In this document: positions 544 to 55,436 of the stretch, piece by piece
How positions within the stretch are numbered: the stretch's first letter is position 1
Layout: each line of letters opens with the position of its first letter
From: Minisyncoccia bacterium
Lineage (GTDB): Bacteria; Patescibacteriota; Minisyncoccia; Phycocordibacterales; JAACPR01
Assembly: GCA_041740795.1 (NCBI GenBank)
Contig: JBGSLH010000016.1
Location: forward strand, 3,431-67,430
Direction of reading: 5' to 3'
DNA: 64,000 nucleotides
Position numbers and translations under genes: made by a program
The notes under the pieces: model-generated
What the model saw: the letters and a program-made list of their open reading frames with translations, nothing else
Told to the model about the DNA's origin: nothing
Databases searched by the model: none

Positions 544-3375
544 ATGAAATCATACGATCACAAGTCCATTGAGGCCAAATGGCAAAAGCAGTGGACCGAG
601 CAGAATCTTTTTAAGACAGTCGAAAATCCCAAAAATAAGATGTACATTCTTATCGAGTTTCCATACCCGTCCGGAGATCTCCATGTCGGCCACTGGTATG
701 CGTTTGCAGTAACTGACATTTTTGCGAGGTACATGCACCATGTCGGCAAGGATGTACTTTTTCCTATCGGATTTGATGCGTTCGGACTTCCAGCAGAGAA
801 CGCCGCAATCAAACGAGGACTCAATCCCAAGACATGGACCTATTCCAATATGGCAGTCATGACAAACCAGCTCAAGAATATGGGGACGATGTTCGATTGG
901 GACAAAAAAATCGTGACGTGCGATCCTTCGTATTACAAATGGACACAGTGGTTGTTTCTCCAATTTTATAAAAAGAATCTGATTCACCACGAGCAGACTC
1001 ACGTTAACTGGTGTCCTTCTTGTAAAACAGTCCTTGCAAACGAACAGCTCGACAGCGGATTGTGCGAACGTTGTGGAAGCACTGTTGAACAAAAAGAAAT
1101 GATGCAATGGAATATCGCTATCACACAGTATGCAGACAAGCTTATTGATGATCTTGAACAGGTCAAATGGCCCAATCACATCAAGGAAGCGCAGAAGAAC
1201 TGGATTGGTCGAAGTACCGGTGCGTATTTTTCATTCGACATTCAAGACAGCGTCGAAAAAATTAAAGTCTTCACAACTCGTCCTGATACCTTGTTCGGTG
1301 TTACATACGTGGTAATTGCTCCTGAACATGATCTTGTTCAAAAATTAAGATCTCAAATCACCAATAGGTCTGAGGTCGATGCGTATATCCAAAAAACAAA
1401 TCAAAAGACCGATCTCGACAGACAAGCAAGTAAAGAAAAATCAGGGATACAACTACAAGGACTTTTTGCAATACATCCTGCTACACAAGAGCACATACCT
1501 GTATTCATCGCAGATTATGCTCTTGCTCGATATGGGACTGGATGTGTAATGGCTGTACCTGCGCATGATGAAAGGGATTTTGAATTTGCTTCAAAGTTTA
1601 ATTTGCCAATTAAGCATGTAATTCGTCCTGTTCGAGTAGATTCAACTAATCCACCACAAGAAGGAAAGAAAGATGTATACAGAACAAACGTTCATGTTTT
1701 TGTGCGAAACCCCAAAGATAATACGTACTTATGTTTGAAATGGAAAAAATTCGATTGGAATACGTTTATTATTGGAGGAGTTGAAAAAGGAGAGGATATT
1801 ATTGAAGCTGCCAAAAGAGAAGTGCTGGAAGAAACAGGGTATAAAAATATTAAATTGATTCAAACACTTGGAGAAGGTGTTGAAGCACATTATTTTGCGG
1901 CTCACAAAGATGAAAACCGAATCTCAATTTCTCTACCTATTCTTTTTGAACTGATTGATGAAGAACGACACGAAGTTTCTACAGAAGAATCGGTGCAAGT
2001 AGAACCATATTGGTCTACTCTTGAAACTGTTAAAAAAGGACCTTTCACTTGTTCAGAACTGGATGTATGGCTTGATCGTTTAGAAAACATTCCACATGCA
2101 ATGCTTGAAAAGGGTACAGTATTCAATTCAGGTGACTTTGATGGAATTTCTTCAGAAGAAGCCAAATTCAAGATCACAGAAAAATTTGGAGAAGTTGCAA
2201 CCACATACAAACTTCAAGACTGGTCAGTATCACGACAACGATATTGGGGATGTCCTATCCCGATGATTCACTGTAGTTCATGTGGGATTGTGCCTGTTCC
2301 CGAAAATCAGCTCCCTGTACAACTTCCTGAAATGGAAAAAATAGAAATACGAGATGATGGCAAATCTCCACTCGCACACAATCAAGAATGGGTAAACATA
2401 CCTTGTCCTGTCTGTGATGCTCCTGCAAGGCGAGAGACAGACACTCTCGATACATTTGTTGATTCAAGTTGGTATTACACTCGATATGTGGACATGCTCA
2501 ATATTGAAGCATTCGCAGACAAGAAAAAACTTGATACCTGGATGCCTATTGATTTTTATTCAGGTGGAAGCGAGCACACGACGAGACATCTTCTATATGC
2601 TCGATTCGTATACAAAGTCATGCACGATCTCGGACTTGTTCCACAATCAGAACCTTTTATGAAAAGAAACAATAGAGGTCTTATCCTCGGACCGGACGGA
2701 AACAAGATGAGCAAATCCAAAGGTAATGTAATCAATCCAGACGAGTTAGTAGAAAAAGTTGGTGCTGACGTTGTGCGTTCATACCTTGCTTTTATCGGCC
2801 CATACAACGAAGCAGGGAGTTATCCATGGGATCCGAACGGAGTCGTAGGTATTCGAAGATTTTTTGAACGTGTGTGCGAACTCGCAGACAGAATTTCAAC
2901 AGAAGATTCAAAAGAATCTCTCATTGCCCTCAATACGATGCTTTCACAGATTACGTATGACTTTGAACAACTCAAACTCAACACTGCATTATCTAAACTT
3001 ATGATTTGTGTGAATATTTTAGAAAAAAGCAATTTTTCGAAGCAGACATTCCAATCGCTTCTCATTGTGCTCAACTCATTCGCACCACATATCGTGCAAG
3101 AACTCTGGTCACAGACAGACGGAGTAGGCTTTATTCATACCCAAAAATTCCCGGCTGCAGATCAGTCTCTACTTGGGCAACAAGGTATAAAAATAGCTGT
3201 TCAAGTTAATGGAAAAACTCGAACCGTATTAGAATTATCACCTGATGCATCGCAGGAGGAAGTACTCTCACTTGCAAAAGCATCATCTGAAATCATCAAG
3301 TGGACAGAAGGAAAAACCATTGTCAAAGAAATCTACGTACCTCAAAAACTGGTCAGCCTGGTCGTAAAGGAATAA
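544..3375 (+). CDS. leuS: Leucyl-tRNA synthetase carrying an inserted Nudix domain
   Basis: 943-aa ORF. It has the class I motifs PYPSGDLHVGH (HIGH) and NKMSKSKGN (KMSKS) and the CP1 editing signature TTRPDTLFGVTYVVIAPEH. Confidence 0.95.
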   Translation: MKSYDHKSIEAKWQKQWTEQNLFKTVENPKNKMYILIEFPYPSGDLHVGHWYAFAVTDIFARYMHHVGKDVLFPIGFDAFGLPAENAAIKRGLNPKTWTYSNMAVMTNQLKNMGTMFDWDKKIVTCDPSYYKWTQWLFLQFYKKNLIHHEQTHVNWCPSCKTVLANEQLDSGLCERCGSTVEQKEMMQWNIAITQYADKLIDDLEQVKWPNHIKEAQKNWIGRSTGAYFSFDIQDSVEKIKVFTTRPDTLFGVTYVVIAPEHDLVQKLRSQITNRSEVDAYIQKTNQKTDLDRQASKEKSGIQLQGLFAIHPATQEHIPVFIADYALARYGTGCVMAVPAHDERDFEFASKFNLPIKHVIRPVRVDSTNPPQEGKKDVYRTNVHVFVRNPKDNTYLCLKWKKFDWNTFIIGGVEKGEDIIEAAKREVLEETGYKNIKLIQTLGEGVEAHYFAAHKDENRISISLPILFELIDEERHEVSTEESVQVEPYWSTLETVKKGPFTCSELDVWLDRLENIPHAMLEKGTVFNSGDFDGISSEEAKFKITEKFGEVATTYKLQDWSVSRQRYWGCPIPMIHCSSCGIVPVPENQLPVQLPEMEKIEIRDDGKSPLAHNQEWVNIPCPVCDAPARRETDTLDTFVDSSWYYTRYVDMLNIEAFADKKKLDTWMPIDFYSGGSEHTTRHLLYARFVYKVMHDLGLVPQSEPFMKRNNRGLILGPDGNKMSKSKGNVINPDELVEKVGADVVRSYLAFIGPYNEAGSYPWDPNGVVGIRRFFERVCELADRISTEDSKESLIALNTMLSQITYDFEQLKLNTALSKLMICVNILEKSNFSKQTFQSLLIVLNSFAPHIVQELWSQTDGVGFIHTQKFPAADQSLLGQQGIKIAVQVNGKTRTVLELSPDASQEEVLSLAKASSEIIKWTEGKTIVKEIYVPQKLVSLVVKE
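1624..2112 (+). other. Nudix-fold insertion domain inside LeuRS
   Basis: About 160 extra residues lie between AHDERDFEFASKFNLPIKHVI and GTVFNSGDFDG. They contain an exact Nudix box GGVEKGEDIIEAAKREVLEETGY (G-x5-E-x7-REUxEExGU) at 1774..1842. Confidence 0.75.
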
Positions 3376-4564: not shown

Positions 4565-5806
4565 ATGAATTTTAGTTTTTTAGAATTACTTGCTATTGGG
4601 ATCGACTATCTTTTTTTCCTTATTCCTGTCGCTATTCCTGTACTTATTTTCTATCTTTTGTTCGATGTGTATGTCTCATACAATAGACAGAAGTATCGAA
4701 ACTCTCTCGAATGGGTTTTGCTTGAGATTATCCCATCGCCTGACAATGTTAAATCACCAGCTGCGATGGAGCTTTTTTTGTTGTCCTTGTATCAGACAAG
4801 CGGAGAATCAACGTGGATTGACCGATGGGTGAAGGGGAAGGTACGAACATGGTTCTCACTTGAGCTAGTTTCTCTCGGAGGGAAGGTCAGGTTTTATCTC
4901 TGGTGTGAATCCAAGATGAAAAAATTTATCGAATCGCAATTATATGCACAGTATCCTGGTGCCGAAGTACGCGAGGCCGAGGATTATGCTGCCAAATTTA
5001 ACACGACTCAATATGAGATAAAATCAATCGAAATGACTCTCGACAAACCTGATCCGTATCCGATCAAAACCTACATGGACTATGCTCTCGACAAGGAACA
5101 AGAGGAAGAGTTCAAGATCGATCCAATTACGCCAGTACTCGAATTTTTTAATACGATCCCAGAAGATAATTATGCCTGCATTCAGATTTTGGTCAGAGCA
5201 CACAAAGCAGAGGATCTTGATCCAAGCAAAACATTTCCGAGCTTTTCAAAAAAGATAGATAATTGGAAAGAGACCGCAAAAAAGGAAATTGAGGAAATCA
5301 AGAAAAAATCCTTTATTGAGGTTGAAGAAGCTGGAGTTAAGAAAAAACAAAACGTACAAACAGAGAGTCAGAAGCGTGTCATCTCTGCACTTGATCGAAG
5401 TACGACCAAATTTGCCTTTGATACAGGAATCCGCCTTTTGTATATTGGAAAAAAGGAATCCTTTGCTGATAACTTTGGGATTTTGACCGGAACATTCAGA
5501 CAATACAATACAGGCGAACTCAATAGCTTCAAACCTCGATCTGGATCCGGAAACAGTTTTGACTATCCTTGGCAGGATATATTTGGAAGAAAGGTAGTCA
5601 AAATAAAAGAAGAGCTCTTAGAAGCGTATCAACTTCGTGATTATTTTTGGAAAAGTGATTACAAAGACAAAAAGCGACCATTCTTTATTCTTAATACAGA
5701 GGAGTTGGCAACGATTTATCACTTCCCAGGCATGGTAGCACAGACACCTTCACTTAATCGAGTTGATTCACGCAAAGTTTCGCCTCCTGATAATCTTCCT
5801 GTCTAA
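4565..5806 (+). CDS. Conserved-looking hypothetical membrane-anchored protein
   Basis: 413-aa ORF with N-terminal TM helices and a K/E-rich middle. Its stop overlaps the mltG start (TAATG). I cannot name a family. Confidence 0.6.
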   Translation: MNFSFLELLAIGIDYLFFLIPVAIPVLIFYLLFDVYVSYNRQKYRNSLEWVLLEIIPSPDNVKSPAAMELFLLSLYQTSGESTWIDRWVKGKVRTWFSLELVSLGGKVRFYLWCESKMKKFIESQLYAQYPGAEVREAEDYAAKFNTTQYEIKSIEMTLDKPDPYPIKTYMDYALDKEQEEEFKIDPITPVLEFFNTIPEDNYACIQILVRAHKAEDLDPSKTFPSFSKKIDNWKETAKKEIEEIKKKSFIEVEEAGVKKKQNVQTESQKRVISALDRSTTKFAFDTGIRLLYIGKKESFADNFGILTGTFRQYNTGELNSFKPRSGSGNSFDYPWQDIFGRKVVKIKEELLEAYQLRDYFWKSDYKDKKRPFFILNTEELATIYHFPGMVAQTPSLNRVDSRKVSPPDNLPV

Positions 5807-6750
5807 TGATGAGTCTGACCATACAAAAAATATACGTAGGAGTTTCAATACTCGCACTTTTGTGGGTAGTACTTACTTCTGCACCGCTTAGTTTTCACGA
5901 CGACAGCATAATTACTGTTTCAAAAGGAGATAGTGTCAAAGTCATCGCACATAAACTCAAAGAAAACAAGATCATCCAGTCCGAAACTTTTTTTACCAAT
6001 GTCGTAATCTTTTTCAATCTTGATAACAAGATTGTTGCAGGGGACTATTCCTTCAAAAAAGAACCGACCCTTTTTCAGGTGTTACGCCGAATTTCGACAG
6101 GGGATTATGGTATAGAAGTAAAACGCATCACTCTTATCGAAGGTCTAACCATAGCAGAGATGGCACAACAGTTTTCTGCGGAATTCTATAATATTTCAGA
6201 AGAAGACTTCAAAGAAAAAGCGACTTCTTACGAAGGATATCTTTTTCCTGATACATATTATTTTACTGAAAATATTTCATCAGAAGATGTTATTGTAAAA
6301 ATGCGAACAACGTTTGACGAAAAGATTGCACAACAAAAGGATATTCTTAATTCCAAAAAACCACTCAAGGACATTGTCATAATGGCATCTATCATAGAAA
6401 AAGAAGCAACCGCTGAGTCTATGCAATTAGTCTCGAATATTCTATGGCATAGGATTGATATTAATATGCCACTTCAGGTTGATGCGAGTTTTGTCTATGA
6501 ACGAAACAAACACACATTCGAACTTTCTCTCGATGATCTTGCAACCGACTCTCCATATAATACATATATCAGATACGGACTGACTCCAACTGCGATATCC
6601 AATCCTGGTATTCAAGCACTGCGAGCGGCCGCTTTTCCAGAACCGACGCAATACCTTTATTTTTTGACAGGATACGATGGAGAGATGTATTATGCAAAAA
6701 CACTCAAGGAACACGATGCAAACCGCGAAAAATATCTTAAAGCAAAATAA
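5806..6750 (+). CDS. mltG: Endolytic murein transglycosylase MltG (YceG-like)
   Basis: 314-aa ORF with an N-terminal TM helix and YceG-type motifs ASIIEKEA, SPYNTY and YLYFLTGYDGEMYYAKTLKEH. Confidence 0.85.
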   Translation: MMSLTIQKIYVGVSILALLWVVLTSAPLSFHDDSIITVSKGDSVKVIAHKLKENKIIQSETFFTNVVIFFNLDNKIVAGDYSFKKEPTLFQVLRRISTGDYGIEVKRITLIEGLTIAEMAQQFSAEFYNISEEDFKEKATSYEGYLFPDTYYFTENISSEDVIVKMRTTFDEKIAQQKDILNSKKPLKDIVIMASIIEKEATAESMQLVSNILWHRIDINMPLQVDASFVYERNKHTFELSLDDLATDSPYNTYIRYGLTPTAISNPGIQALRAAAFPEPTQYLYFLTGYDGEMYYAKTLKEHDANREKYLKAK

Positions 6751-7792
6751 AAAAGTACTTGTCGGCATCTCAGGTGGTGTTGACTCTTCGGTGTCCGCAA
6801 TCCTCCTCAAAGAAGCAGGGTACGAAGTCGAAGGTGTTTTTGCTAAGGTGTGGCAGCCTGATTTTGTCGAGTGTACATGGCGCGACGAGATGAAGGACGC
6901 TATGCGTGTCTGTGCCAAGCTCGAAATCCCGTTTCACTTTCTTGATCTTGAAGAAAAATACAGGACACACGTAGCAGACTATATGATAGGTGAATATCAA
7001 GCAGGAAGGACTCCTAATCCTGATGTCATGTGCAATACGCACATCAAGTTTGGTTTCATCTACGAATTTGCCATGCAAAGCGGCTTTGACTTCCTTGCTA
7101 CAGGACACTACGCCCAGAATATCAAATGTCAGCTCTACAGAGGAGCCGACATCAACAAGGATCAGAGCTATTTTTTGTGGAATATTGATACTCCCAAGTT
7201 CGAACGGATTCTTTTTCCAATAGGCGATATGGAAAAAGAGGATGTGCGCAAGATTGCCGAGAAGTACAGTCTCTTTACTGCAGATAAAAAAGACAGCCAA
7301 GGCCTGTGCTTCATCGGTCCAGTGGACATGAAGTTATTTTTAAAAAAACTTATTACGACTAAGTCTGGTAATGTTCTAGATCAAAAAGGTCAGATGATTG
7401 GAACTCACGAAGGTGTGGAGCTTTATACTATCGGAGAGCGTCACGGCTTTACTATTTTTCCTGCCCACAAGCAGATTAACGAGAAACCTCTTTTTGTAAT
7501 CAACAAAGATATTGCACAAAACATACTTATCGTCGGTACTGAAACTCCATTGATCAAAGAAGTGGTCATTTCTTCTGTACGAATGCATGCTCCGCTTAAA
7601 AATTCAGAAATAGAAGTTCAGTTCAGATACCGTCAAAAACCTTTTGCAGCAAAATTAGTAGAACATGACGGTACATACAAGATAGTTTTTAATGAAATGT
7701 GCCCTGCGTTTATTGCTCTTGGACAGTCTGCTGTTATATATCAAGACACGCACTGTATTGGAGGTGGGGTAGTAGAAAAAATGTTATACTAG
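6716..7792 (+). CDS. mnmA: tRNA 2-thiouridine(34) synthase MnmA
   Basis: PP-loop VGISGGVDSSV, followed by DQSYFL and GQSAVIY. The ORF is open from 6677, but the 6716 ATG (MQTAKN) gives the usual short N-terminus. Confidence 0.9.
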   Translation: MQTAKNILKQNKKVLVGISGGVDSSVSAILLKEAGYEVEGVFAKVWQPDFVECTWRDEMKDAMRVCAKLEIPFHFLDLEEKYRTHVADYMIGEYQAGRTPNPDVMCNTHIKFGFIYEFAMQSGFDFLATGHYAQNIKCQLYRGADINKDQSYFLWNIDTPKFERILFPIGDMEKEDVRKIAEKYSLFTADKKDSQGLCFIGPVDMKLFLKKLITTKSGNVLDQKGQMIGTHEGVELYTIGERHGFTIFPAHKQINEKPLFVINKDIAQNILIVGTETPLIKEVVISSVRMHAPLKNSEIEVQFRYRQKPFAAKLVEHDGTYKIVFNEMCPAFIALGQSAVIYQDTHCIGGGVVEKMLY

Positions 7793-10927: not shown

Positions 10928-12028
10928 ATGTCGTTTTTTAGTTCAAAGAACAAACAAACATATACTTTATCAATTTCACTCAAAAGCTCATCGATAGATT
11001 TTCAATTAGTGCGTTTGGGTGAAAGTATCAAAAAAGAAGTGCTTCTTGTTGAGCGGGAAGTTATCCTTCTTGAGAATTCGCAGGATCCTTCACTCTACAC
11101 AAGTCAATACTTTAGAGAACTCGAATCTCTTTTCAAAAAAAACAAAAGCAAAATCACACAGCTCGTACAAGGAGCACCGCTCTCTATCCAGGTTATTCTC
11201 TATGCTCCATGGTTCACTTCGACCATTAGTTCGATTGTACATGCTGAATCTGCAATGATAAATGAGAACTTTCTTTCCAAAAAGCTAGCAGGCATCACTA
11301 CTGAGAAAGACCTCCACAATCTCGAAAAACGAATAATTCGGATTCAAACAAACGGATACACACTGAATGAACTTTCTCATACCACCTGTTCGAATATCCA
11401 CCTGAGCGTGTACTCAAGCTACATATCCGCTCACATTCACACATCGTTCATGGAGGCGTTCAAAAAACATCTTCCTGAGTCAAAACACACCACTTACGTA
11501 ACAAGTCCGTTATTGATTCTCGATAACATCAAGCGCTTCATGGTTAGAGAAGATAATGTGACATTTCTCTATATTGGAGGTGAGATAACAGAAGTCGGAG
11601 TAATTGAAGACGATTCTCTCTCACATTTCGCGACTTTTCCAATAGGAAAACATGACTTCTTGCGGGAGATTCAAACACAAACCAAGACATATGACTATAA
11701 TGCATTGTACCAAAAGGAGATTCGAATCAAATCCTTGTCGCAACAGAAATCTTTTGATGCCCTCAAACAGAAATGGTCTTTATTAATCACACAATCACTT
11801 CAACTATTCAACAAAAATGTGCCCAGCAAGGTTCTCATTATTACAGATTCCAAGACGAAAGATTTTTTTACTGATCTTCTTCTCGCTTCAATAAAGAAAG
11901 ATTCCCAAAGTATCCTCAAGAACAATAGGATAATTAACTTTGATATATCGCTATTAAAAGATATAATTTCATACAAGACTCCACTTGGAGAAAATGAGTT
12001 AGATTTAACATTAGAGGCTTTAATTTAA
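10928..12028 (+). CDS. Hypothetical protein
   Basis: 366-aa ORF. The segment FLYIGGEITEVGVIED gives a weak hint of an actin-like ATPase fold. No firm motif. Confidence 0.5.
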   Translation: MSFFSSKNKQTYTLSISLKSSSIDFQLVRLGESIKKEVLLVEREVILLENSQDPSLYTSQYFRELESLFKKNKSKITQLVQGAPLSIQVILYAPWFTSTISSIVHAESAMINENFLSKKLAGITTEKDLHNLEKRIIRIQTNGYTLNELSHTTCSNIHLSVYSSYISAHIHTSFMEAFKKHLPESKHTTYVTSPLLILDNIKRFMVREDNVTFLYIGGEITEVGVIEDDSLSHFATFPIGKHDFLREIQTQTKTYDYNALYQKEIRIKSLSQQKSFDALKQKWSLLITQSLQLFNKNVPSKVLIITDSKTKDFFTDLLLASIKKDSQSILKNNRIINFDISLLKDIISYKTPLGENELDLTLEALI

Positions 12029-12045
12029 AACGTGAAAATATAGTT

Positions 12046-13446
12046 ATGAAAAAGAATTTCTTACAAGATGTTATACCCGCAAGTCAAAAAAGGTCAATAC
12101 GCGATATTCCAATTCCATCCCACCAAAAAGCAAAGATCTCAATCAAAAAAGAAGCACCTCTAAAATCCGAAGAAGAAATTAAAGACACATATCTCCCAAA
12201 ATCTTCAAATGATACAATGTCACTCAACACCTTTTCAAAAGATGAACACTCGGTTTTTGAGCCTGAGCAGCTGCAACACGCTACACAAAACGAAGATTTT
12301 AAAAAAGAACCTGCACCCAAGACATATACACCTCATGAATCAAATATTCCGACATACAAAAAAAATAAAAAATCATATATGAAAAAAATAATCATTGGAG
12401 TACTTATTGGAATCATAATCTTTTTCGGATTCATTTTTTCACGAACAGAAGCGATTATTACGATTCATTCCAAAAAATCAACAGAGGACATCTCTTTACA
12501 GATTCCTCTTGATTCGAAGAATCCTCAAATAACTCAGACTCAGATTACAAAATCTCTTTCCAAGACACTTCCAGCAACCTCTGAACAGCAAGTTGAGAAA
12601 CAAGCGAGTGGAAGAATCAAGATTATCAACACTCATAAAGAGACACCTCAGGAACTCGTGAAGAATACACGCTTCCAAACACCGAACGGTCTCGTCTATC
12701 GAATCAAGGATTCTATTGTGGTGCCAGGATATACAATGTCAGGCTCAAACGTAGTACCAGGAACACTTGAGGTGGAAGTATATGCAGATAGTGCAGGAGA
12801 AGAGTACAATATTTCAAAGACCAAATTCACCATCCCAGGATTTGCAGGGCGTGAGCAGTTCGACAAGATAACTGCTGAGACAGTAGGTGATATGAGTGGA
12901 GGATACATTGGTGTACGCAAAGTAGTTACAGAAGATGCTAAGGAAAAAGCACAAGAAGAGCTCGAAATGGAACTGAAGACACAGATAGAGCAGACTCAAA
13001 ACCAATCTACTGAATACGTTCTGGTGCCTGATCCAACAACACTTTCATACGGTGAATTACAAGACAAGGCAGAAGGTAATTCCATAACATTGACGTTATC
13101 AGCCTCAGTAGACGCATATTCTTTTGTCAAAAAAGATCTCTTTAGTTTCATTGGTCAAAACAGTATCGAAGGCGCGACAACCAACGATCAATTCACTCTG
13201 GAAGGTAATAGTCTGACATATCTCGTTGAGGACAAAATGGTCAAAATGACTGGCTCAACAGAAGTTATATGGATAACTGATACTGAGCAGCTCAAAAAAG
13301 ACTTTGCAGGAAAAAAGAGAAGTGAAGTTGTTACAGTTATTGACGCATATCGCTCTTTTGAAAAAACTGACGCTGAACTTTCTCCATTCTGGAAGACTCG
13401 ATTCCCTTCAGATCCCCTTAAGATCGAAGTTGTTATAGCTAAGTAA
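12046..13446 (+). CDS. Hypothetical single-pass membrane protein
   Basis: 466-aa ORF with a low-complexity N-terminus, a TM helix IIIGVLIGIIIFFGFIF, and a large extracytoplasmic region. Confidence 0.55.
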   Translation: MKKNFLQDVIPASQKRSIRDIPIPSHQKAKISIKKEAPLKSEEEIKDTYLPKSSNDTMSLNTFSKDEHSVFEPEQLQHATQNEDFKKEPAPKTYTPHESNIPTYKKNKKSYMKKIIIGVLIGIIIFFGFIFSRTEAIITIHSKKSTEDISLQIPLDSKNPQITQTQITKSLSKTLPATSEQQVEKQASGRIKIINTHKETPQELVKNTRFQTPNGLVYRIKDSIVVPGYTMSGSNVVPGTLEVEVYADSAGEEYNISKTKFTIPGFAGREQFDKITAETVGDMSGGYIGVRKVVTEDAKEKAQEELEMELKTQIEQTQNQSTEYVLVPDPTTLSYGELQDKAEGNSITLTLSASVDAYSFVKKDLFSFIGQNSIEGATTNDQFTLEGNSLTYLVEDKMVKMTGSTEVIWITDTEQLKKDFAGKKRSEVVTVIDAYRSFEKTDAELSPFWKTRFPSDPLKIEVVIAK

Positions 13447-49712: not shown

Positions 49713-50486
49713 TTATACCCTCTTCAACTCAAGACACATGAACATCGGAAATTCCTTGCGAGCAGCATTCTCTGCTTCAGCTCGAGGCCCTGGTTGACTG
49801 ACCTTGTGAGAAATCCATTCTTCAATCTTCGTGATCGCAAAATTATGTTTTGCAAATACTTTAGAATATACCTGAAGTGGCCTATGGAAAGACGATGTTA
49901 TTTGCTTATCTGTTTTTTGTCCAGGATTCATGTCGATTGAAATTTCTTTCTCACTCATATATAGATCCATAACTTTGGATTGAGTTTTTTTCTTTTCGTT
50001 GTATATCCAGTCTCCATACTGTGGAATTCTGAATGCAGGATGGTTGAGCACGAGATAGATTCTTCCCTTCGGTGCAAGGAGTCGTGAGAGATTTGAAACC
50101 ACGAGATTTAAATGCTTCATGTTCTGGATCGCAAGCACGATTGTAATGACGTCAAATGTTTGTCCTCTTAGTATCACAGAGTCTTCTGCACTACCTACAG
50201 TATATGAAATTTCCTTATGATTTTTTTGAGCAATGGCGATGAGTTCCTTTCCAATATCGACTCCTGTCAGTTTTTTGGAAAAAGGAAGGAATTTTTCGAG
50301 CACAAACCCTTGTCCACATCCAAGCTCAAGAAGCGACTGATCTTTTTTGAGATCGACAAGCCGAATGAGATTAGGTAGCACAACTTGTGCATGGTATGTA
50401 TCATCTTCCTTGAGATGTGCGTCATACCAACTAGCCACCTTCCCCCATCCTGTTCCCTGTTGTTTTTTAGCATTATCTTTTTGCAT
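49713..50486 (-). CDS. Class I SAM-dependent methyltransferase
   Basis: LLELGCGQGFVLEKF (motif I) and FDVITIVLAIQNM. Confidence 0.8.
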   Translation of the reverse strand: MQKDNAKKQQGTGWGKVASWYDAHLKEDDTYHAQVVLPNLIRLVDLKKDQSLLELGCGQGFVLEKFLPFSKKLTGVDIGKELIAIAQKNHKEISYTVGSAEDSVILRGQTFDVITIVLAIQNMKHLNLVVSNLSRLLAPKGRIYLVLNHPAFRIPQYGDWIYNEKKKTQSKVMDLYMSEKEISIDMNPGQKTDKQITSSFHRPLQVYSKVFAKHNFAITKIEEWISHKVSQPGPRAEAENAARKEFPMFMCLELKRV

Positions 50487-50863
50487 ATATTGAAGTATTT
50501 GTGAATACTAGCATCTCATTCTTTCTTTTACAAAGTAGTATAAAGTTATCCACTGTATTTGAAGAAAAAAACTCCTATTTACCAACTTACAAGCGACTTA
50601 TCCACAGTTAACACACTTTTCAGTATTGACGTAAAAACATAAAAAAGAGTTATGCTATAGATAGGTTACTTTCATCATCTTTCCACTTTATTTTTCAAAC
50701 ACGGGACTTCAAGGACGCTTCTTTTGGGAGAGGCAACACGAAGACCCACTTATAGACAAACTGGATACACATTATGAACGTAGCCTTTCTTGCCAAACGT
50801 CGCCTTTATGAGAGGCGACTTTTGGTACCTGACATAGCCCTATATTTAATATTTTTACCCCCC

Positions 50864-50892
50864 TTGCTATTTATATACTAGTGTGTTATATT
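50864..50892 (+). promoter_or_regulatory. Putative sigma70-type promoter of the tRNA-like RNA
   Basis: TTGCTA (50864-50869), a 17-nt spacer, then TATATT (50887-50892). Confidence 0.5.
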
Positions 50893-50898
50893 AATCAT

Positions 50899-51070
50899 CG
50901 GAAGCAGTACGTCTCAAGTGTTAGCTTAATGGTAAAGCCGACCTCTCGTTTCAGGAAACCTCAATCCAGACGCAATGAGAGGTTTTATCCGAGTTCGACT
51001 CTTGGACACAGGAGACAGTACCAGCCGCAGACACACGGGCCCCGCACAACATATCGTGCGGGGCCCTTTC
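50899..51070 (+). ncRNA. Candidate tRNA-like small RNA (not a canonical tRNA)
   Basis: It has a D-arm GCTT-AATGGTA-AAGC (50924-50938) preceded by TA, and a T-arm CCGAG-TTCGACT-CTTGG (50989-51005). An 8-bp arm GACCTCTC/GAGAGGTT carries a 29-nt loop. The acceptor-like stem is extended and interrupted. It ends in the terminator GGGCCCCGCAC..GTGCGGGGCCCTTT (51037-51069). Confidence 0.45.
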
Positions 51071-51094
51071 ATATTGAGAATGCACAGTTTATTT

Positions 51095-51123
51095 TTGACC
51101 GTATCGAATATTAACTCTATAAT
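51095..51123 (+). promoter_or_regulatory. Near-consensus promoter giving a leaderless transcript
   Basis: TTGACC (51095-51100), a 17-nt spacer, then TATAAT (51118-51123). The ATG at 51130 begins 7 nt after the -10 box. Confidence 0.7.
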
Positions 51124-51129
51124 GTATGC

Positions 51130-51384
51130 ATGTCAGAAATTACCTTCGACGAAGACAAGACATTTCAACAATCTCTGGAACCAGAAACAATAATACCCAA
51201 AAAGGGTTTTGAAGGTTGGTTTTTTAAAAAATTTCCGGGAGGTTATTTATTTAAAAAATCCCTTTTATACGGACTGGTGATTGTACTTTTTTGCATTGCC
51301 CTGTTTTTTATCGCACTTGGAAGATTCAATATCCAAACGGAAAAATTAAAGTTTCAGGATCGTGTTAATAACACTCAGTCATGA
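51130..51384 (+). CDS. Small hypothetical membrane protein
   Basis: 84-aa ORF with a TM helix LLYGLVIVLFCIALFFIAL. Its stop overlaps the next start (ATGA). Confidence 0.5.
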   Translation: MSEITFDEDKTFQQSLEPETIIPKKGFEGWFFKKFPGGYLFKKSLLYGLVIVLFCIALFFIALGRFNIQTEKLKFQDRVNNTQS

Positions 51385-52064
51385 GAACAAAACACTCTCG
51401 CGCCTTTACTCTCATAGAGCTTCTCCTTGTGGCAGGTGTCATTTCAATACTAATGAGTGTTATTTTCTTCAGGGTAACTGAGGCCAAAAAAAAGGCTGAG
51501 GACGCACACATGGTCGCAGAGACAGCTCAAGTGAGCCGTGCAATCTATCAATACAAAGAGGACAACGGTGGTTTTGTTCCTCGAAGCCTAACGGTTACCT
51601 CAGGGACTATTCTAGAAAGGAATCCAGGAGAAGCAGGCCCTAATCAAGACTATGTTGAAGCATTTGAACCTCTCGTAACAGGAGGGTATCTACCATCAAT
51701 TCCGTACAGTCCTTCTGGTGAGGACTATGCATACATACTTGGTACAGACGGGATGAGCGCAGTTTTTGCAGCTGACTTAAATTATCAAAAATCAAATAGT
51801 TCCGCCTCAAATTCTTGTCCAATGAACCAGGCTACGTCTACGCAAGTCGACATGTCTTCTTGCACAACTGGAAAAACTTTTATGAGAAACGGGTTTAGTT
51901 TTTTCTTTGGAGACACACCATCCTGTCAAGCTGCGTTATATGACAGGACTACCCATACATGCTTTGAATACGAATATCCCACTCCTTGTCAAGTTTGTCC
52001 TATTGTTCAAGCCAATCTAATCTGTGACGGATCAAGCAACAGCGACTACTGTTCCTGTCTGTAA
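51381..52064 (+). CDS. Type IV pilin-like protein with a Cys-rich C-terminus
   Basis: Prepilin-type N-terminus MRTKHSRAFTLIELLLVAGVISIL. There are 9 cysteines in the last ~85 residues. Confidence 0.75.
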   Translation: MRTKHSRAFTLIELLLVAGVISILMSVIFFRVTEAKKKAEDAHMVAETAQVSRAIYQYKEDNGGFVPRSLTVTSGTILERNPGEAGPNQDYVEAFEPLVTGGYLPSIPYSPSGEDYAYILGTDGMSAVFAADLNYQKSNSSASNSCPMNQATSTQVDMSSCTTGKTFMRNGFSFFFGDTPSCQAALYDRTTHTCFEYEYPTPCQVCPIVQANLICDGSSNSDYCSCL

Positions 52065-53996: not shown

Positions 53997-54071
53997 TGGT
54001 GACCCTACCGGGAATCGAACCCGGATTTACGCCTTGAGAAGGCGCTGTCCTAACCGTTAGACGATAGGGCC
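53997..54071 (-). tRNA. tRNA-Glu (anticodon CUC) with encoded CCA
   Basis: Hand-folded cloverleaf: acceptor GGCCCTA/TAGGGTC, D-arm GTCT-AACGGTTA-GGAC, anticodon arm GCGCC-TTCTCAA-GGCGT, 4-nt variable loop, T-arm CCGGG-TTCGATT-CCCGG, then ACCA. Confidence 0.9.
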
Positions 54072-54248: not shown

Positions 54249-55436
54249 TCAACCTGCTTGTGCCAACCGCTTTTCTACATTGAGCCAGGTCAGGAGGATA
54301 TCCTGAATCTGTTCAAAGGTCAAAGCAGAAGGTTCCACCATGGATCGACTCTGGTTGGTACCATTGTAGATCCGACGATAACGTTGTTCAGGCTTCTTCA
54401 TTTCGTGGACATGCCACTGACAAAGCTCTTGAAGCGTGCCTTGGGCAATGAGTTGTTCGGGAGTCAACATGACCCCTCGTAGCTCAGCTTCATTCATCCT
54501 GAGCACACGGACGAACCCTTCGAGATTGCCGGCAAAACTTGGATTTACACCGACAAAGATGTTCTCTTTGGAACTCTTCAGCAACACGACATCAATCTTG
54601 AGATTGCGCGAGACGGCATCGAATTCGATTTCACAATCATTATAGCGTCCGTCGCTGCCGTCGATCATCAGAGTTCTCACTTTCCCAAAGGATGTTTTGA
54701 ACTCTTCAATGTGCGAGCTAGCTACTGTCAGTGCACGATCAAAAGAAGCCTGTTGCCTATCTTGTGCATCCTGTGCCATCTTGAGCCAGGATTCGCCTTC
54801 TTTGCCAAGCAATGTCGAGCACGCCTTGACGGTCAGGTGAATCCAAGGACGGTGGATGGAAAGAAAGCGCTTGCGCACCAACCTTCTCCGCTGTTCACCC
54901 GGAGGGGTAAGCATGAACTCACTTTTGACATTCTCTAAGAGTTCTCGTTCGCTCTGAATTATTGCTCGGATAATCTTGTATGCCCACTCCATAACAATTT
55001 CAGACGAGCGAGCAGGATCAGGTTCTCCGACACCGTAGCGATGCATCATATTGATGACACGTGTAATGGTGAAAGGATTCTTATTCTGAGCAAGTTCCTT
55101 GTCCCTGAAACCGACGACTTGGAGGAGATTGATGATCTCCGGCCTGTCTTCAATTCCGAGATATTCGGCAACGAGTAGGCAACAAGCCTTTTGGTCTTCC
55201 TTGCCATGATCATCGAGCTCTCCGCCCGCAACCCCAAAGAACAGTGTCTCAGGAAAATTGAGGTGAAAGTCGTTCGGCACGATTGATTGGATGTATCCAT
55301 ACTTCAAGTCGTCACTAATATCGAAGACTTCTTGTCCGTAGTCGAGGCAAAGCACTTCTCCGAGATACTCATCGAAATGAGTTCCTCCGTGAGAGATGAA
55401 TTGGTTGATTTTCCTTCTTCTGTTTTGGCTTTTCAA
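54249..55436 (-). CDS. Hypothetical protein with weak MYG1/UPF0160-like N-terminal motifs
   Basis: 395-aa ORF with a TTG start directly after an in-frame stop. SHGGTHFDE and GGELDDHG loosely resemble the MYG1 motifs THxGxFHxDE and GG.YD..DHH. It looks GC-richer than its neighbours. Confidence 0.4.
   Translation of the reverse strand: MKSQNRRRKINQFISHGGTHFDEYLGEVLCLDYGQEVFDISDDLKYGYIQSIVPNDFHLNFPETLFFGVAGGELDDHGKEDQKACCLLVAEYLGIEDRPEIINLLQVVGFRDKELAQNKNPFTITRVINMMHRYGVGEPDPARSSEIVMEWAYKIIRAIIQSERELLENVKSEFMLTPPGEQRRRLVRKRFLSIHRPWIHLTVKACSTLLGKEGESWLKMAQDAQDRQQASFDRALTVASSHIEEFKTSFGKVRTLMIDGSDGRYNDCEIEFDAVSRNLKIDVVLLKSSKENIFVGVNPSFAGNLEGFVRVLRMNEAELRGVMLTPEQLIAQGTLQELCQWHVHEMKKPEQRYRRIYNGTNQSRSMVEPSALTFEQIQDILLTWLNVEKRLAQAG

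What the first reader, a model, noticed from the sequence alone, without database searches (positions are those of the whole stretch)
50864..51070. Orphan tRNA-like small RNA with its own promoter and terminator, upstream of a pilin-like operon
A TTGCTA-17-TATATT promoter (50864-50892) and a very strong terminator (GGGCCCCGCAC..GTGCGGGGCCC+TTT, 51037-51069) bracket about 170 nt. That stretch contains unmistakable tRNA elements:
- TA followed by a D-arm GCTT-AATGGTA-AAGC, with A14, G18G19 and A21 equivalents
- a 4-nt variable region
- a T-arm CCGAG-TTCGACT-CTTGG

It is nevertheless not a canonical tRNA:
- The anticodon position is an 8-bp helix (GACCTCTC/GAGAGGTT) capped by a 29-nt loop.
- An alternative 5' partner, AACCTC at 50957-50962, can pair with the same 3' strand.
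- The acceptor is a long interrupted helix. It consists of GTGT/ACAC, then an AA/AG internal loop, then GTCTC/GAGAC, then GTAC/GTAC.

This overall shape resembles tRNA-like modules such as bacterial Y-RNA-like (YrlA) RNAs, or an intron-bearing pre-tRNA. No Ro/Rsr or RtcB gene is in the window. The RNA ends 25 nt before the near-consensus promoter of the 51130 operon.
Basis: seen in the sequence. Interest (0 to 1): 0.65.

Follow-up and report, generated by a model that had tools for sequence, protein, structure and literature searches.

The report
Sealed tRNA-shaped small RNA, Parcubacteria
A stand-alone small RNA gene in an ultra-small (Parcubacteria) bacterium has the core of a tRNA but closed ends and no anticodon loop, so it most likely mimics a tRNA rather than decoding; it belongs to a fast-changing, patchily distributed RNA family of unknown role.

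Summary
Window 50864-51072 (+) carries a promoter-like site, a ~172-nt unit and a strong terminator. Its core (50915-51013) matches the Rfam tRNA model at 30.6 bits, with a 32-nt insertion in place of the anticodon loop.

It is not a working tRNA:
- Two acceptor pairs are mismatched.
- Leader and trailer pair to seal the ends.
- No CCA follows the discriminator base.
- The RNA at the same genomic slot in relatives cannot be aligned with it, whereas a nearby true tRNA-Glu is ~96% identical between the same contigs.

The same slot lies downstream of a conserved rod-like small RNA ('U'). In three further Parcubacteria lineages it holds an orthologous RNA with the same promoter position, GG start and CA-rich 3' linker, closed by a 15-20 bp helix with compensatory changes. 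One of these is also tRNA-like. Six other relatives lack the RNA.

Best reading: a tRNA-derived, sealed, non-decoding small RNA. It probably acts as a protein-binding tRNA mimic; that role is inferred, not shown.

YrlA membership fails: no Rfam hit, different arm order, no Ro-binding motif, no rsr gene nearby. Only the layout resembles Deinococcus Yrn1. An intron-bearing pre-tRNA and a decaying pseudogene remain minor rivals.

The parts
50864..50892 (+). Promoter-like site of the tRNA-like RNA: TTGCTA, 17 nt, TATATT, with a TG one base upstream of the -10 hexamer (extended -10).
   Evidence: 9/12 matches, TG present. A promoter-like -10 hexamer and a GG start occupy the same relative position in L122, L123 and L205. 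The transcription start at about 50900 (GG) is inferred from spacing.
50900..51072 (+). Predicted primary transcript ('T' sRNA), about 172 nt including the terminator.
   Evidence: Bracketed by the promoter-like site and the terminator. The fold of 50895-51072 is -70.4 kcal/mol, z = -6.8. No transcript data are available.
50907..50921 (+). 5' strand of the closing helix: GTAC, GTCTC, AA, GTGT.
   Evidence: Pairs with 51006-51021. Duplex energy -17.4 versus -8.6 +/- 2.7 kcal/mol for shuffles; 28 of 5000 shuffles reach it.
50915..51013 (+). tRNA-like core.
   Evidence: Rfam RF00005 30.6 bits, E = 1.4e-4, with a 32-nt insertion in the anticodon loop. ARAGORN in intron mode calls tRNA-Pro(cgg) at 50914-51014 with a 28-nt insert at 35/36.
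50922..50938 (+). U8-A9 equivalents plus D arm: TA, GCTT, AATGGTA, AAGC.
   Evidence: Identical to the Rfam tRNA consensus over 17 nt. Occurs only once in the window even with up to 3 mismatches allowed. A14, A15, G18, G19 and A21 equivalents are read from the sequence.
50940..50984 (+). Extended hairpin at the anticodon-arm position; there is no 7-nt anticodon loop.
   Evidence: 8 bp GACCTCTC/GAGAGGTT. The minimum-free-energy fold extends this to 11 bp, then 2 bp and 3 bp, with a CGC bulge. No bulge-helix-bulge is present.
50985..51005 (+). 4-nt variable region (TTAT) plus T arm: CCGAG, TTCGACT, CTTGG.
   Evidence: The T arm GAGTTCGACTCT matches that of the L122 orthologue (GAGTTCGAATCT) at 11 of 12 positions.
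51006..51021 (+). 3' strand of the closing helix: ACAC, AG, GAGAC, bulged A, GTAC.
   Evidence: The discriminator-position A (51013) is followed by GAC, not CCA.
51022..51036 (+). Single-stranded CA-rich linker: CA GCCGCAGACACAC.
   Evidence: GTACCA plus (G/A)ACACA is shared with L122 and L205. L123 keeps GCAACAGA.
51037..51072 (+). Intrinsic terminator: GGGCCCCGCAC, 8-nt loop, GTGCGGGGCCC, then TTTCAT.
   Evidence: 11 pairs, 10 of them G-C.
50662..50823 (+). Neighbouring conserved small RNA 'U'. It is a rod-like fold ending in its own terminator hairpin and defines the conserved locus in which the T slot lies.
   Evidence: About 73% identical in relatives. nhmmer finds it in 12 distinct related contigs. 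In the consensus fold, 15 of 39 pairs show double changes that keep the pair. No Rfam family matches, apart from a 13-bit full-length 6S alignment in L205.

Best explanation
The element is a real, independently transcribed small RNA gene ('T') of a Parcubacteria/Paceibacterota bacterium. It descends from a tRNA but no longer works as one.

It keeps the tRNA elbow: the D arm, the T arm and the nucleotides that make the tertiary contacts. The two functional ends are closed off:
- The anticodon loop is replaced by a long hairpin.
- The acceptor end is sealed by pairing of leader and trailer.

The RNA therefore cannot be charged or decode. It belongs to a lineage-specific RNA family that evolves fast and is patchily present. 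In that family the conserved parts are the promoter position, a GG start, a long closing helix, a CA-rich single-stranded 3' linker and the terminator. The interior is free to change.

Most likely mechanism (inferred, not shown): it acts as a stable tRNA-shaped decoy or scaffold that binds a tRNA-recognising protein through the elbow and closing helix. The layout is that of Deinococcus Yrn1, but without Ro.

Shown: anatomy, orthology, structural constraint, lack of tRNA-type constraint. Inferred: transcription, processing, any partner.
For: **Anatomy and significance**
- Searches give the sequence features and their statistics.
- Tertiary-contact nucleotides, read from the sequence with the numbering of the alignment: U8, A14, A15 with U48, G18, G19, A21, U54, U55, C56 and A58 equivalents are all present.

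**Orthology**
- The slot lies directly downstream of the conserved U sRNA, next to the same methyltransferase-YqeY-RmuC genes, in L122, L123 and L205/L206.
- These loci share the -10/GG start region and the GTACCA...ACACA linker before a terminator.
- L122 is independently tRNA-like: Rfam 23.5 bits, and ARAGORN in intron mode calls a tRNA there.
- In about 360 kb of Parcubacteria DNA, ARAGORN's intron mode calls tRNAs only at this slot.

**Structural constraint**
- Closing-helix duplex energies are -31.3, -32.9 and -30.7 kcal/mol in L122, L123 and L205. At most 1 of 5000 shuffles reaches these values.
- The three helices share a GG(G/U)UGG / CCA(A/C)CC core, and at least 7 aligned pairs are kept through changes on both sides.
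- In the window the helix energy is -17.4 kcal/mol (28 of 5000 shuffles reach it). The flanks of the true tRNA-Glu do not pair.

**Not a tRNA in function**
- Acceptor pairs 2 and 3 are A.G and A.A, and there is no anticodon loop. No CCA follows the discriminator base.
- tRNA-Glu(CUC) is about 96% identical between the window, L124 and L205, whereas T cannot be aligned between the same contigs.
- ARAGORN's predicted anticodons differ: Pro-CGG in the window, Val-CAC in L122.
Against: - There is no expression or end-mapping data, so the promoter and terminator are only consensus matches.
- Only four orthologues were recovered. Two of them (L123, L205) show no tRNA likeness.
- The window copy lacks the GGUUGG/CCAACC helix core of the other three, and its closing helix is the weakest.
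- Absence from six relatives at the same slot shows the RNA is dispensable, which also fits decay of a redundant tRNA gene.
- No candidate protein partner is encoded nearby.
- The CA-rich linker could instead be a base-pairing seed.
- At genome scale a 30.6-bit tRNA hit is only borderline. By my own rescaling of the E-value by search-space size, the expectation is about 0.02 for this window.
Confidence: 0.5

Rival explanations
1. Decaying tRNA gene. A redundant isoacceptor gene (for example Pro-CGG or Thr-CGU) is losing function. The insertion and the mismatches are damage, and the RNA has no role.
For: - Patchy presence: absent from six relatives at the same slot.
- Mismatched acceptor pairs and a disrupted anticodon loop.
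- Rapid divergence.
- The window's closing helix is only moderately better than chance.
Against: - Decay does not build or keep 15-20 bp closing helices with compensatory changes in three lineages.
- The promoter position, GG start, CA-rich linker and strong terminators are retained.
- All tertiary-contact nucleotides of the window copy are intact.
- The inserted segment extends the anticodon-position helix rather than disrupting it.
Confidence: 0.2
2. Base-pairing regulatory sRNA. The conserved single-stranded CA-rich linker (GUACCA...ACACA) between the closing helix and the terminator is the seed that pairs with mRNAs. The structured, tRNA-like body only stabilises the 5' end.
For: - Apart from the helix, the linker is the only primary-sequence element shared by the orthologues.
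- The body is free to vary.
- A stable 5' domain, a single-stranded seed and a terminator is a common sRNA layout (general knowledge).
Against: - No complementary target was found in the 64-kb window.
- L123 has lost GUACCA.
- This reading does not explain why a complete tRNA elbow is kept in two lineages.
Confidence: 0.15
3. Bacterial Y RNA of the Deinococcus Yrn1 type. The closing helix binds an Rsr/Ro60 protein encoded elsewhere in the genome, and the tRNA-like module recruits a partner.
For: - The order is the same as described for Yrn1: a long terminal helix encloses a D-like arm, a middle hairpin at the anticodon-arm position and a T-like arm (paper PMC4201824).
- A second structured sRNA (U) lies next to it. 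That Y RNA genes often occur in pairs (YrlA/YrlB, Yrn1/Yrn2) also comes from the paper read.
- The primary sequence evolves fast.
Against: - No TROVE domain among the 20 window ORFs of >=340 aa that were scanned, in the 10 genes around the element, or in the 6-10 kb flanks of L122, L123 and L205.
- No Rfam Y RNA or YrlA match at E<=10.
- No shared GNCGAA(N)G motif or conserved bulge in the helix; the helices of the relatives are perfectly paired (read from the sequences).
Confidence: 0.08
4. Intron-bearing precursor of a functional tRNA. The 28-32-nt insert is removed and the leader-trailer helix is a processing stem, yielding tRNA-Pro(CGG) or similar.
For: - ARAGORN in intron mode calls tRNA-Pro(cgg) with a 28-nt intron.
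- The Rfam tRNA score is above the gathering score.
- After removal of the insert the loop would read CUCGGAG, with U33 and A37.
- Irregular tRNA-like genes with anticodon-loop insertions occur in other bacteria of the Candidate Phyla Radiation (CPR), for example the L090 array.
Against: - The insert is far too short for a group I intron.
- There is no bulge-helix-bulge.
- The predicted site is 35/36, not 37/38.
- Two of seven acceptor pairs are mismatched, and GAC follows the discriminator base although the window's tRNA-Glu encodes its CCA.
- The orthologous slot has a different predicted anticodon in L122 and no tRNA at all in L123 and L205.
- No RtcB was found among the window ORFs scanned against Pfam. 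EndA was not tested for.
Confidence: 0.07

Closest known systems
Deinococcus radiodurans Yrn1 (bacterial Y RNA, Ro/Rsr-bound)
   Same: - A stand-alone sRNA of about 120 nt.
- The 5' and 3' ends form a long helix that encloses a tRNA-like module in the natural order: D-like arm, middle hairpin at the anticodon-arm position, T-like arm (PMC4201824).
- Non-decoding.
- The primary sequence evolves fast.
   Different: - No rsr gene nearby.
- No conserved Ro-binding helix sequence or bulge.
- No Rfam match.
- A partner protein is unknown, so membership is not established.
YrlA (Salmonella/Mycobacterium Y-RNA-like A)
   Same: It contains a tRNA-like elbow with D- and T-arm mimicry and is not used in translation.
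   Different: - YrlA is circularly permuted relative to tRNA: T arm, closed 'acceptor' stem-loop, D arm, with the terminal helix at the anticodon-arm position. Here the order is that of a tRNA.
- The GNCGAA(N)G motif is absent.
- No Rfam hit at E<=10.
- No rsr-rtcBA context.
Canonical tRNA (Rfam RF00005) and tRNA pseudogenes
   Same: - D arm, T arm, 4-nt variable region and tertiary-contact nucleotides.
- 30.6 bits against the model.
   Different: - No anticodon loop.
- Acceptor stem 5/7 paired and continued by leader-trailer pairing.
- No CCA.
- Not conserved the way real tRNAs are between the same genomes.
Intron-containing tRNAs (archaeal bulge-helix-bulge type; bacterial group I type)
   Same: An insertion within the anticodon loop region of a tRNA-shaped gene.
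   Different: - 28-32 nt is far too short for a group I intron.
- No bulge-helix-bulge.
- Non-canonical position 35/36.
Irregular or allo-tRNA-like genes of soil and CPR metagenomes (review PMC7609411; L090 array)
   Same: tRNA-shaped genes with non-canonical stems or insertions that probably do not act in translation. One gene in the Saccharibacteria contig L090 has the same D arm, TAGCTTAATGGTAAAGCC.
   Different: - Those occur in arrays and have open acceptor stems.
- This one is single-copy, has its own promoter and terminator, is sealed at the acceptor end and sits at a fixed chromosomal slot.

Membership tests
Canonical decoding tRNA (Rfam RF00005) | Covariance-model score at or above the gathering score | tested here: met
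   30.6 bits against a gathering score of 29, but only in a local, permissive search. Missed by the whole-window 'gathering' run and by default ARAGORN.
Canonical decoding tRNA (Rfam RF00005) | 7-bp acceptor stem with a free 3' end (discriminator base plus CCA, encoded or added) | tested here: not met
   Pairs 2 and 3 are A.G and A.A. GAC follows A73. Leader and trailer pair for 9 further bp. The window's tRNA-Glu encodes CCA.
Canonical decoding tRNA (Rfam RF00005) | 5-bp anticodon stem closed by a 7-nt loop with U33 and a purine at 37 | tested here: not met
   An 8-11 bp helix with a 29-nt structured cap. A 7-nt loop exists only if a 28-nt intron at 35/36 is postulated.
Canonical decoding tRNA (Rfam RF00005) | D-loop and T-loop nucleotides for the elbow (G18, G19, U54, U55, C56, A58, U8-A14, R15-Y48) | tested here: met
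   Read from the sequence with the alignment.
Canonical decoding tRNA (Rfam RF00005) | Strong sequence conservation and constant anticodon identity among relatives | tested here: not met
   T cannot be aligned between contigs in which tRNA-Glu is about 96% identical. Predicted anticodons differ, or the tRNA likeness is lost.
Archaeal/eukaryal-type intron-containing tRNA | Bulge-helix-bulge at the exon-intron junctions, intron usually at 37/38 | tested here: not met
   The folds show a continuous helix with one 3-nt bulge and no bulge-helix-bulge. ARAGORN places the insert at 35/36.
Archaeal/eukaryal-type intron-containing tRNA | Splicing endonuclease and ligase (EndA, RtcB) in the genome | not testable with these tools
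   No RtcB domain among the window ORFs scanned. EndA was not specifically looked for. The rest of the genome is not available.
Group I intron in a bacterial tRNA | Self-splicing intron of roughly 200 nt or more with P1-P9 structure | tested here: not met
   The insert is 28-32 nt. No group I intron hit in Rfam.
YrlA (Y-RNA-like A) | Match to the family's covariance model | tested here: not met
   No Y RNA or YrlA match at E<=10 in the window or in the three orthologues. That a YrlA model is in Rfam 15 is from memory.
YrlA (Y-RNA-like A) | Permuted order T arm, closed acceptor-like stem-loop, D arm, with the terminal helix at the anticodon position | tested here: not met
   The order here is D arm, middle hairpin, T arm, with the terminal helix at the acceptor position (versus the paper read).
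YrlA / bacterial Y RNA | Ro-binding 5'-strand motif GNCGAA(N0-1)G, or the metazoan-like helix with a bulge | tested here: not met
   Read by eye from the sequences; no motif scan was run. No such motif is shared by the four orthologues, and the closing helices of L122, L123 and L205 are perfectly paired. L123 has GACGAU only.
YrlA / bacterial Y RNA | Encoded next to rsr (TROVE-domain Ro60 orthologue) | tested here: not met
   No TROVE domain among the 20 window ORFs of >=340 aa that were scanned, in the genes near the element, or among the called genes within 6-10 kb in L122, L123 and L205. The rest of the genome is unknown.
Bacterial Y RNA (Yrn1 type) | Physical association with Rsr/Ro60 | not testable with these tools
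   Needs immunoprecipitation.
Bacterial Y RNA (Yrn1 type) | tRNA-like module in natural order closed by a long terminal helix | tested here: met
   compared with the description in PMC4201824. This is resemblance of layout only.
tmRNA (one- or two-piece) | tRNA-like domain with open acceptor end plus tag reading frame; detected by ARAGORN or Rfam | tested here: not met
   ARAGORN finds no tmRNA in the window or in the region at relaxed settings. No Rfam hit.
6S RNA (for the neighbouring U sRNA only) | Rod-like fold with a large central bubble; match to RF00013 | tested here: inconclusive
   U has a rod-like consensus fold with a large A/U-rich internal loop and covariation. The only model evidence is a 13.1-bit, E = 2.3, full-length alignment in L205; the window copy gives none.

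The most novel reading that the evidence does not exclude
The T RNAs are a Ro-independent class of sealed tRNA mimics in Parcubacteria that act as decoys for tRNA-targeting proteins, such as toxin nucleases, phage or host anticodon nucleases, or a tRNA-processing enzyme. An arms race would then explain why the interior changes so fast, why the closing helix and elbow are nevertheless kept, and why the gene is gained or lost between close relatives.
Probability: 0.12. Interest if true: 0.7.

Novelty: new variant of a known kind. Interest (0 to 1): 0.45.

Why it matters
- Almost nothing is known about regulatory or structural small RNAs in CPR/Patescibacteria. These bacteria have tiny genomes and depend on hosts.
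- A stand-alone tRNA-derived RNA that keeps the tRNA elbow but is closed at both functional ends would be a natural example of a tRNA gene turned into a non-decoding mimic, outside the Ro/Y-RNA system.
- Together with the adjacent conserved rod-like sRNA (U), it gives two concrete, testable non-coding RNA candidates for cultivable or enrichable Parcubacteria.
- If it is only a decaying tRNA gene, the value is limited to a caution for tRNA annotation in metagenome-assembled genomes (MAGs).

Tried and rejected
- **YrlA, Y RNA, SRP, tmRNA, RNase P or other Rfam families.** No match for T at E<=10 except tRNA. The PrrF and GcvB hits in L205 rest mainly on the promoter- and terminator-like ends and are far below their gathering scores.
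- **Repeat or REP-like element, or antisense regulator of a window gene.** There is no second copy and no complementary stretch longer than 12 nt in the 64 kb.
- **Protein-coding reading.** The overlapping ORFs of 77, 72, 48 and 44 aa were rejected because conservation follows helices, not a reading frame.
- **Functional link to the pilin-like operon.** Rejected because the downstream genes differ in every orthologous locus.
- **Island boundary or attachment-site remnant of tRNA-Glu.** No similarity to tRNA-Glu, and no integrase among the neighbouring genes.
- **Getting more orthologues.** The generic pattern scan of genome contigs returned mostly archaeal intron-containing tRNAs. The metagenome scan with the methyltransferase returned only about 25 true relatives, of which one had U and none had T. 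A U-derived pattern in viral contigs gave 53 chance matches and no U.
- **Neighbouring methyltransferase.** It is a generic class I SAM enzyme with no specific family, so it gives no functional hint.
- **Literature search.** No description of tRNA introns or tRNA-like sRNAs in CPR was found.
Full report
**1. What is in the sequence**

The window comes from a Parcubacteria/Paceibacterota-type bacterium. Homologues of the neighbouring methyltransferase carry those names. The gene content fits: type IV pilin-like proteins, RmuC, YqeY, cell-wall (Mur/FtsW/PBP) genes and many aminoacyl-tRNA synthetases.

- A promoter-like site, TTGCTA-17-TATATT, at 50864-50892. It scores 9/12 and has a TG one base before the -10 hexamer.
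- An 11-bp, 10 G-C terminator stem at 51037-51066, followed by TTTCATAT.

Between them the Rfam tRNA model aligns to 50915-51013 at 30.6 bits (gathering score 29; E = 1.4e-4 in a 401-nt search), with a 32-nt insertion in the anticodon loop. The D arm with the two bases before it (TAGCTTAATGGTAAAGC) equals the model consensus over 17 nt. It occurs only once in the window even when up to 3 mismatches are allowed.

The equivalents of U8, A14, A15/U48, G18, G19, A21, U54, U55, C56 and A58 are all in place. This is read with the numbering.

Default ARAGORN and the whole-window Rfam run at gathering thresholds miss the element. ARAGORN in intron mode calls tRNA-Pro(cgg) with a 28-nt insert between positions 35 and 36. 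The 178-nt stretch folds to -70.4 kcal/mol with z = -6.8.

**2. Why it is not a working tRNA**

- Acceptor pairs 2 and 3 are A.G and A.A.
- GAC, not CCA, follows the discriminator-position A. The true tRNA-Glu(CUC) of the window (53997-54071, minus strand) does encode its CCA.
- Leader and trailer continue the helix: GTCTC/GAGAC, a bulged A, then GTAC/GTAC.
- The whole closing helix has a duplex energy of -17.4 kcal/mol, against -8.6 +/- 2.7 for shuffles (28 of 5000 reach it).
- The part outside the inner four pairs gives -13.0 against -6.4 +/- 2.4 (244 of 20000).
- The flanks of the real tRNA-Glu do not pair.
- The anticodon position is a long hairpin of 11 + 2 + 3 pairs with a CGC bulge. It has no 7-nt loop and no bulge-helix-bulge.
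- A 28-32-nt insert is far too short for a group I intron.

**3. Relatives**

The flanking methyltransferase (49713-50486, minus strand) has many homologues at 56-81% identity. Contigs carrying them were fetched. Two things emerged.

(a) A second non-coding element, 'U', lies between the methyltransferase and the finding (window 50662-50823).
- It is about 73% identical in relatives and is found in 12 distinct related contigs.
- Its consensus fold is rod-like: a 10-bp closing stem, a UCCA/UGGA stem, a large A/U-rich internal loop, a GGG/CCC stem and a variable tip, ending in its own terminator hairpin.
- 15 of the 39 predicted pairs show double changes that keep the pair.
- It matches no Rfam family, apart from a 13-bit full-length 6S alignment in L205.

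(b) The slot just downstream of U holds a small RNA gene in the window, L122, L123 and L205/L206.
- The slot is empty in L127, L209, L210/L211, L214, L215 and L217.
- The four RNAs cannot be aligned by BLAST.
- They nevertheless share the -10/GG start region, a long closing helix, a single-stranded linker (GTACCA plus (G/A)ACACA; L123 keeps GCAACAGA) and a terminator.

**4. Structural constraint in the family**

The closing helices of L122, L123 and L205 are very stable: -31.3, -32.9 and -30.7 kcal/mol, with at most 1 of 5000 shuffles as good. They share a GG(G/U)UGG / CCA(A/C)CC core, and at least seven aligned pairs are kept through changes on both sides.

At this divergence, unconstrained intergenic spacers are no longer alignable. 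The helix is therefore under selection for pairing, which argues against plain decay.

L122 is independently tRNA-like:
- Rfam scores it at 23.5 bits.
- ARAGORN in intron mode calls tRNA-Val(cac) with a 5-nt insert.
- Its T arm, GAGTTCGAATCT, matches the window's at 11 of 12 positions.

In about 360 kb of Parcubacteria DNA, ARAGORN's intron mode calls tRNAs only at this slot. L123 and L205 show no tRNA likeness; L205 is essentially a 30-bp rod.

The window copy is the most tRNA-like. It also has the weakest closing helix and lacks the GGUUGG core.

**5. No tRNA-type constraint**

tRNA-Glu(CUC) differs at about 3 of 73 positions between the window, L124 and L205. T cannot be aligned between the same contigs, and its 'anticodon' changes or disappears. 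A decoding function is therefore very unlikely.

**6. Best explanation**

T is a tRNA-derived, independently transcribed small RNA that keeps the tRNA elbow but is sealed at both functional ends. It belongs to a lineage-specific, dispensable family that evolves fast.

Shown:
- the anatomy;
- orthology;
- selection on the closing helix;
- the lack of tRNA-like conservation.

Inferred:
- transcription;
- 3' processing in the CA-rich linker;
- action as a protein-binding tRNA mimic or decoy.

I put 0.5 on this package. The specific mechanism is the weakest part.

**7. Rivals**

| Reading | Confidence | Main point |
|---|---|---|
| Pseudogene | 0.2 | Fits the patchiness, but not the covarying helices or the retained promoter, linker and terminator. 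|
| Base-pairing sRNA using the CA-rich linker | 0.15 | Fits the conserved linker, but no target is seen in the window, and it leaves the preserved elbow unexplained. |
| Y RNA of the Yrn1 type | 0.08 | See below. |
| Intron-bearing pre-tRNA | 0.07 | See section 2. |

On the Y RNA reading: the layout is what Chen et al. describe for Yrn1, with the arms in natural order and the middle stem-loop at the anticodon-arm position (PMC4201824). Against it:
- No TROVE domain is found in the 20 window ORFs of >=340 aa that were scanned, in the genes near the element, or in the flanks of three orthologous loci.
- No Ro-binding motif is shared.
- No Rfam match exists.

**8. Comparison with known families**

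Membership of YrlA is rejected on four tested features: the model match, the arm order, the motif and the gene context. The resemblance to Yrn1 is one of layout only.

Irregular tRNA-like genes with anticodon-arm insertions exist in other bacteria and in CPR. Examples are L005, L028, L050, L068 and L089, and the seven-gene array in the Saccharibacteria contig L090. Their acceptor stems, read, appear open, and some sit in arrays. I found no published description of such an RNA in CPR.

**9. Verdict**

The element is a new variant of a known kind (a tRNA-derived, tRNA-mimicking sRNA) and of moderate interest. The main limits are the four recovered orthologues, the absence of expression data and the absence of a whole genome.

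Noticed in passing
window 50626-50823 (+): A second, much better conserved small RNA ('U') with its own promoter-like site (TTGACG...TATGCT) and terminator lies between the methyltransferase and the finding.
- Its fold is rod-like with a large A/U-rich internal loop and covarying stems.
- It is found in 12 distinct related contigs.
- It matches no Rfam family; the only hint is a 13-bit full-length 6S alignment in L205.
- It may be a divergent 6S-like RNA.
   Followed up: partly
window 50799-50823 (+), and the same hairpin in L122, L123, L127, L205, L209, L210, L214, L215, L217: The terminator hairpin of U keeps its loop and adjacent stem bases (CTTTATGAG) invariant in all 10 sequences. That is more conservation than a terminator needs, so it may be a protein-binding hairpin.
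   Followed up: no
window 53997-54071 (-): tRNA-Glu(CUC) with an encoded CCA. It also lies near the dcw/Mur genes in L124 and L205 and is about 96% identical across these contigs. It served as the control for tRNA-type conservation.
   Followed up: yes
window 544-3375 (+): The leucyl-tRNA synthetase (943 aa) carries a NUDIX domain (residues 379-496) inserted just after its editing domain. This is an unusual domain combination.
   Followed up: no
window 51095-52064 (+): A near-consensus promoter (TTGACC-17-TATAAT, 11/12) drives an 84-aa protein with a hydrophobic segment (a likely membrane protein, read from the translation). Its stop overlaps the start (ATGA) of a 227-aa pilin-like protein with an N-terminal methylation motif. 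This pair is not found at the orthologous position in relatives.
   Followed up: partly
window 54249-55436 (-); also 4565-5806, 10928-12028, 12046-13446 (+): Four sizeable ORFs (395, 413, 366 and 466 aa) have no Pfam match. The 395-aa ORF also has no NCBIfam match.
   Followed up: no
L090 (Saccharibacteria contig CAZCZD010000033.1), about 4897-6790 (-): An array of seven irregular tRNA-like genes by ARAGORN: Asn-ATT, Gln-TTG with a 35-nt insert, Thr-CGT with a 7-nt insert, and one of undetermined type, among others. One of them has the same D arm (TAGCTTAATGGTAAAGCC) as the window element.
   Followed up: partly
L005, L028, L050, L068, L089, L102/L103/L114, L065/L085/L113, L008/L011/L108 (genome-contig hits): Diverse bacteria (Terriglobia, Cryomorphaceae, Moraxella, Nostoc, Firmicutes and others) carry tRNA-shaped genes with long hairpin insertions at the anticodon arm. 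Where the acceptor stems were read (L005, L028, the Nostoc loci), they are intact. Their nature was not examined.
   Followed up: no
L009, L058 (Levybacteria); also L033, L037, L054, L066, L082: These are apparent 'tRNA within tRNA' matches. In L009 it is a 5' half of tRNA-Val(CAC) followed by a spacer and a complete copy with the same anticodon loop. That looks like a partial duplication or an integration scar rather than a nested gene. The other loci show the same tandem pattern but were not parsed.
   Followed up: partly
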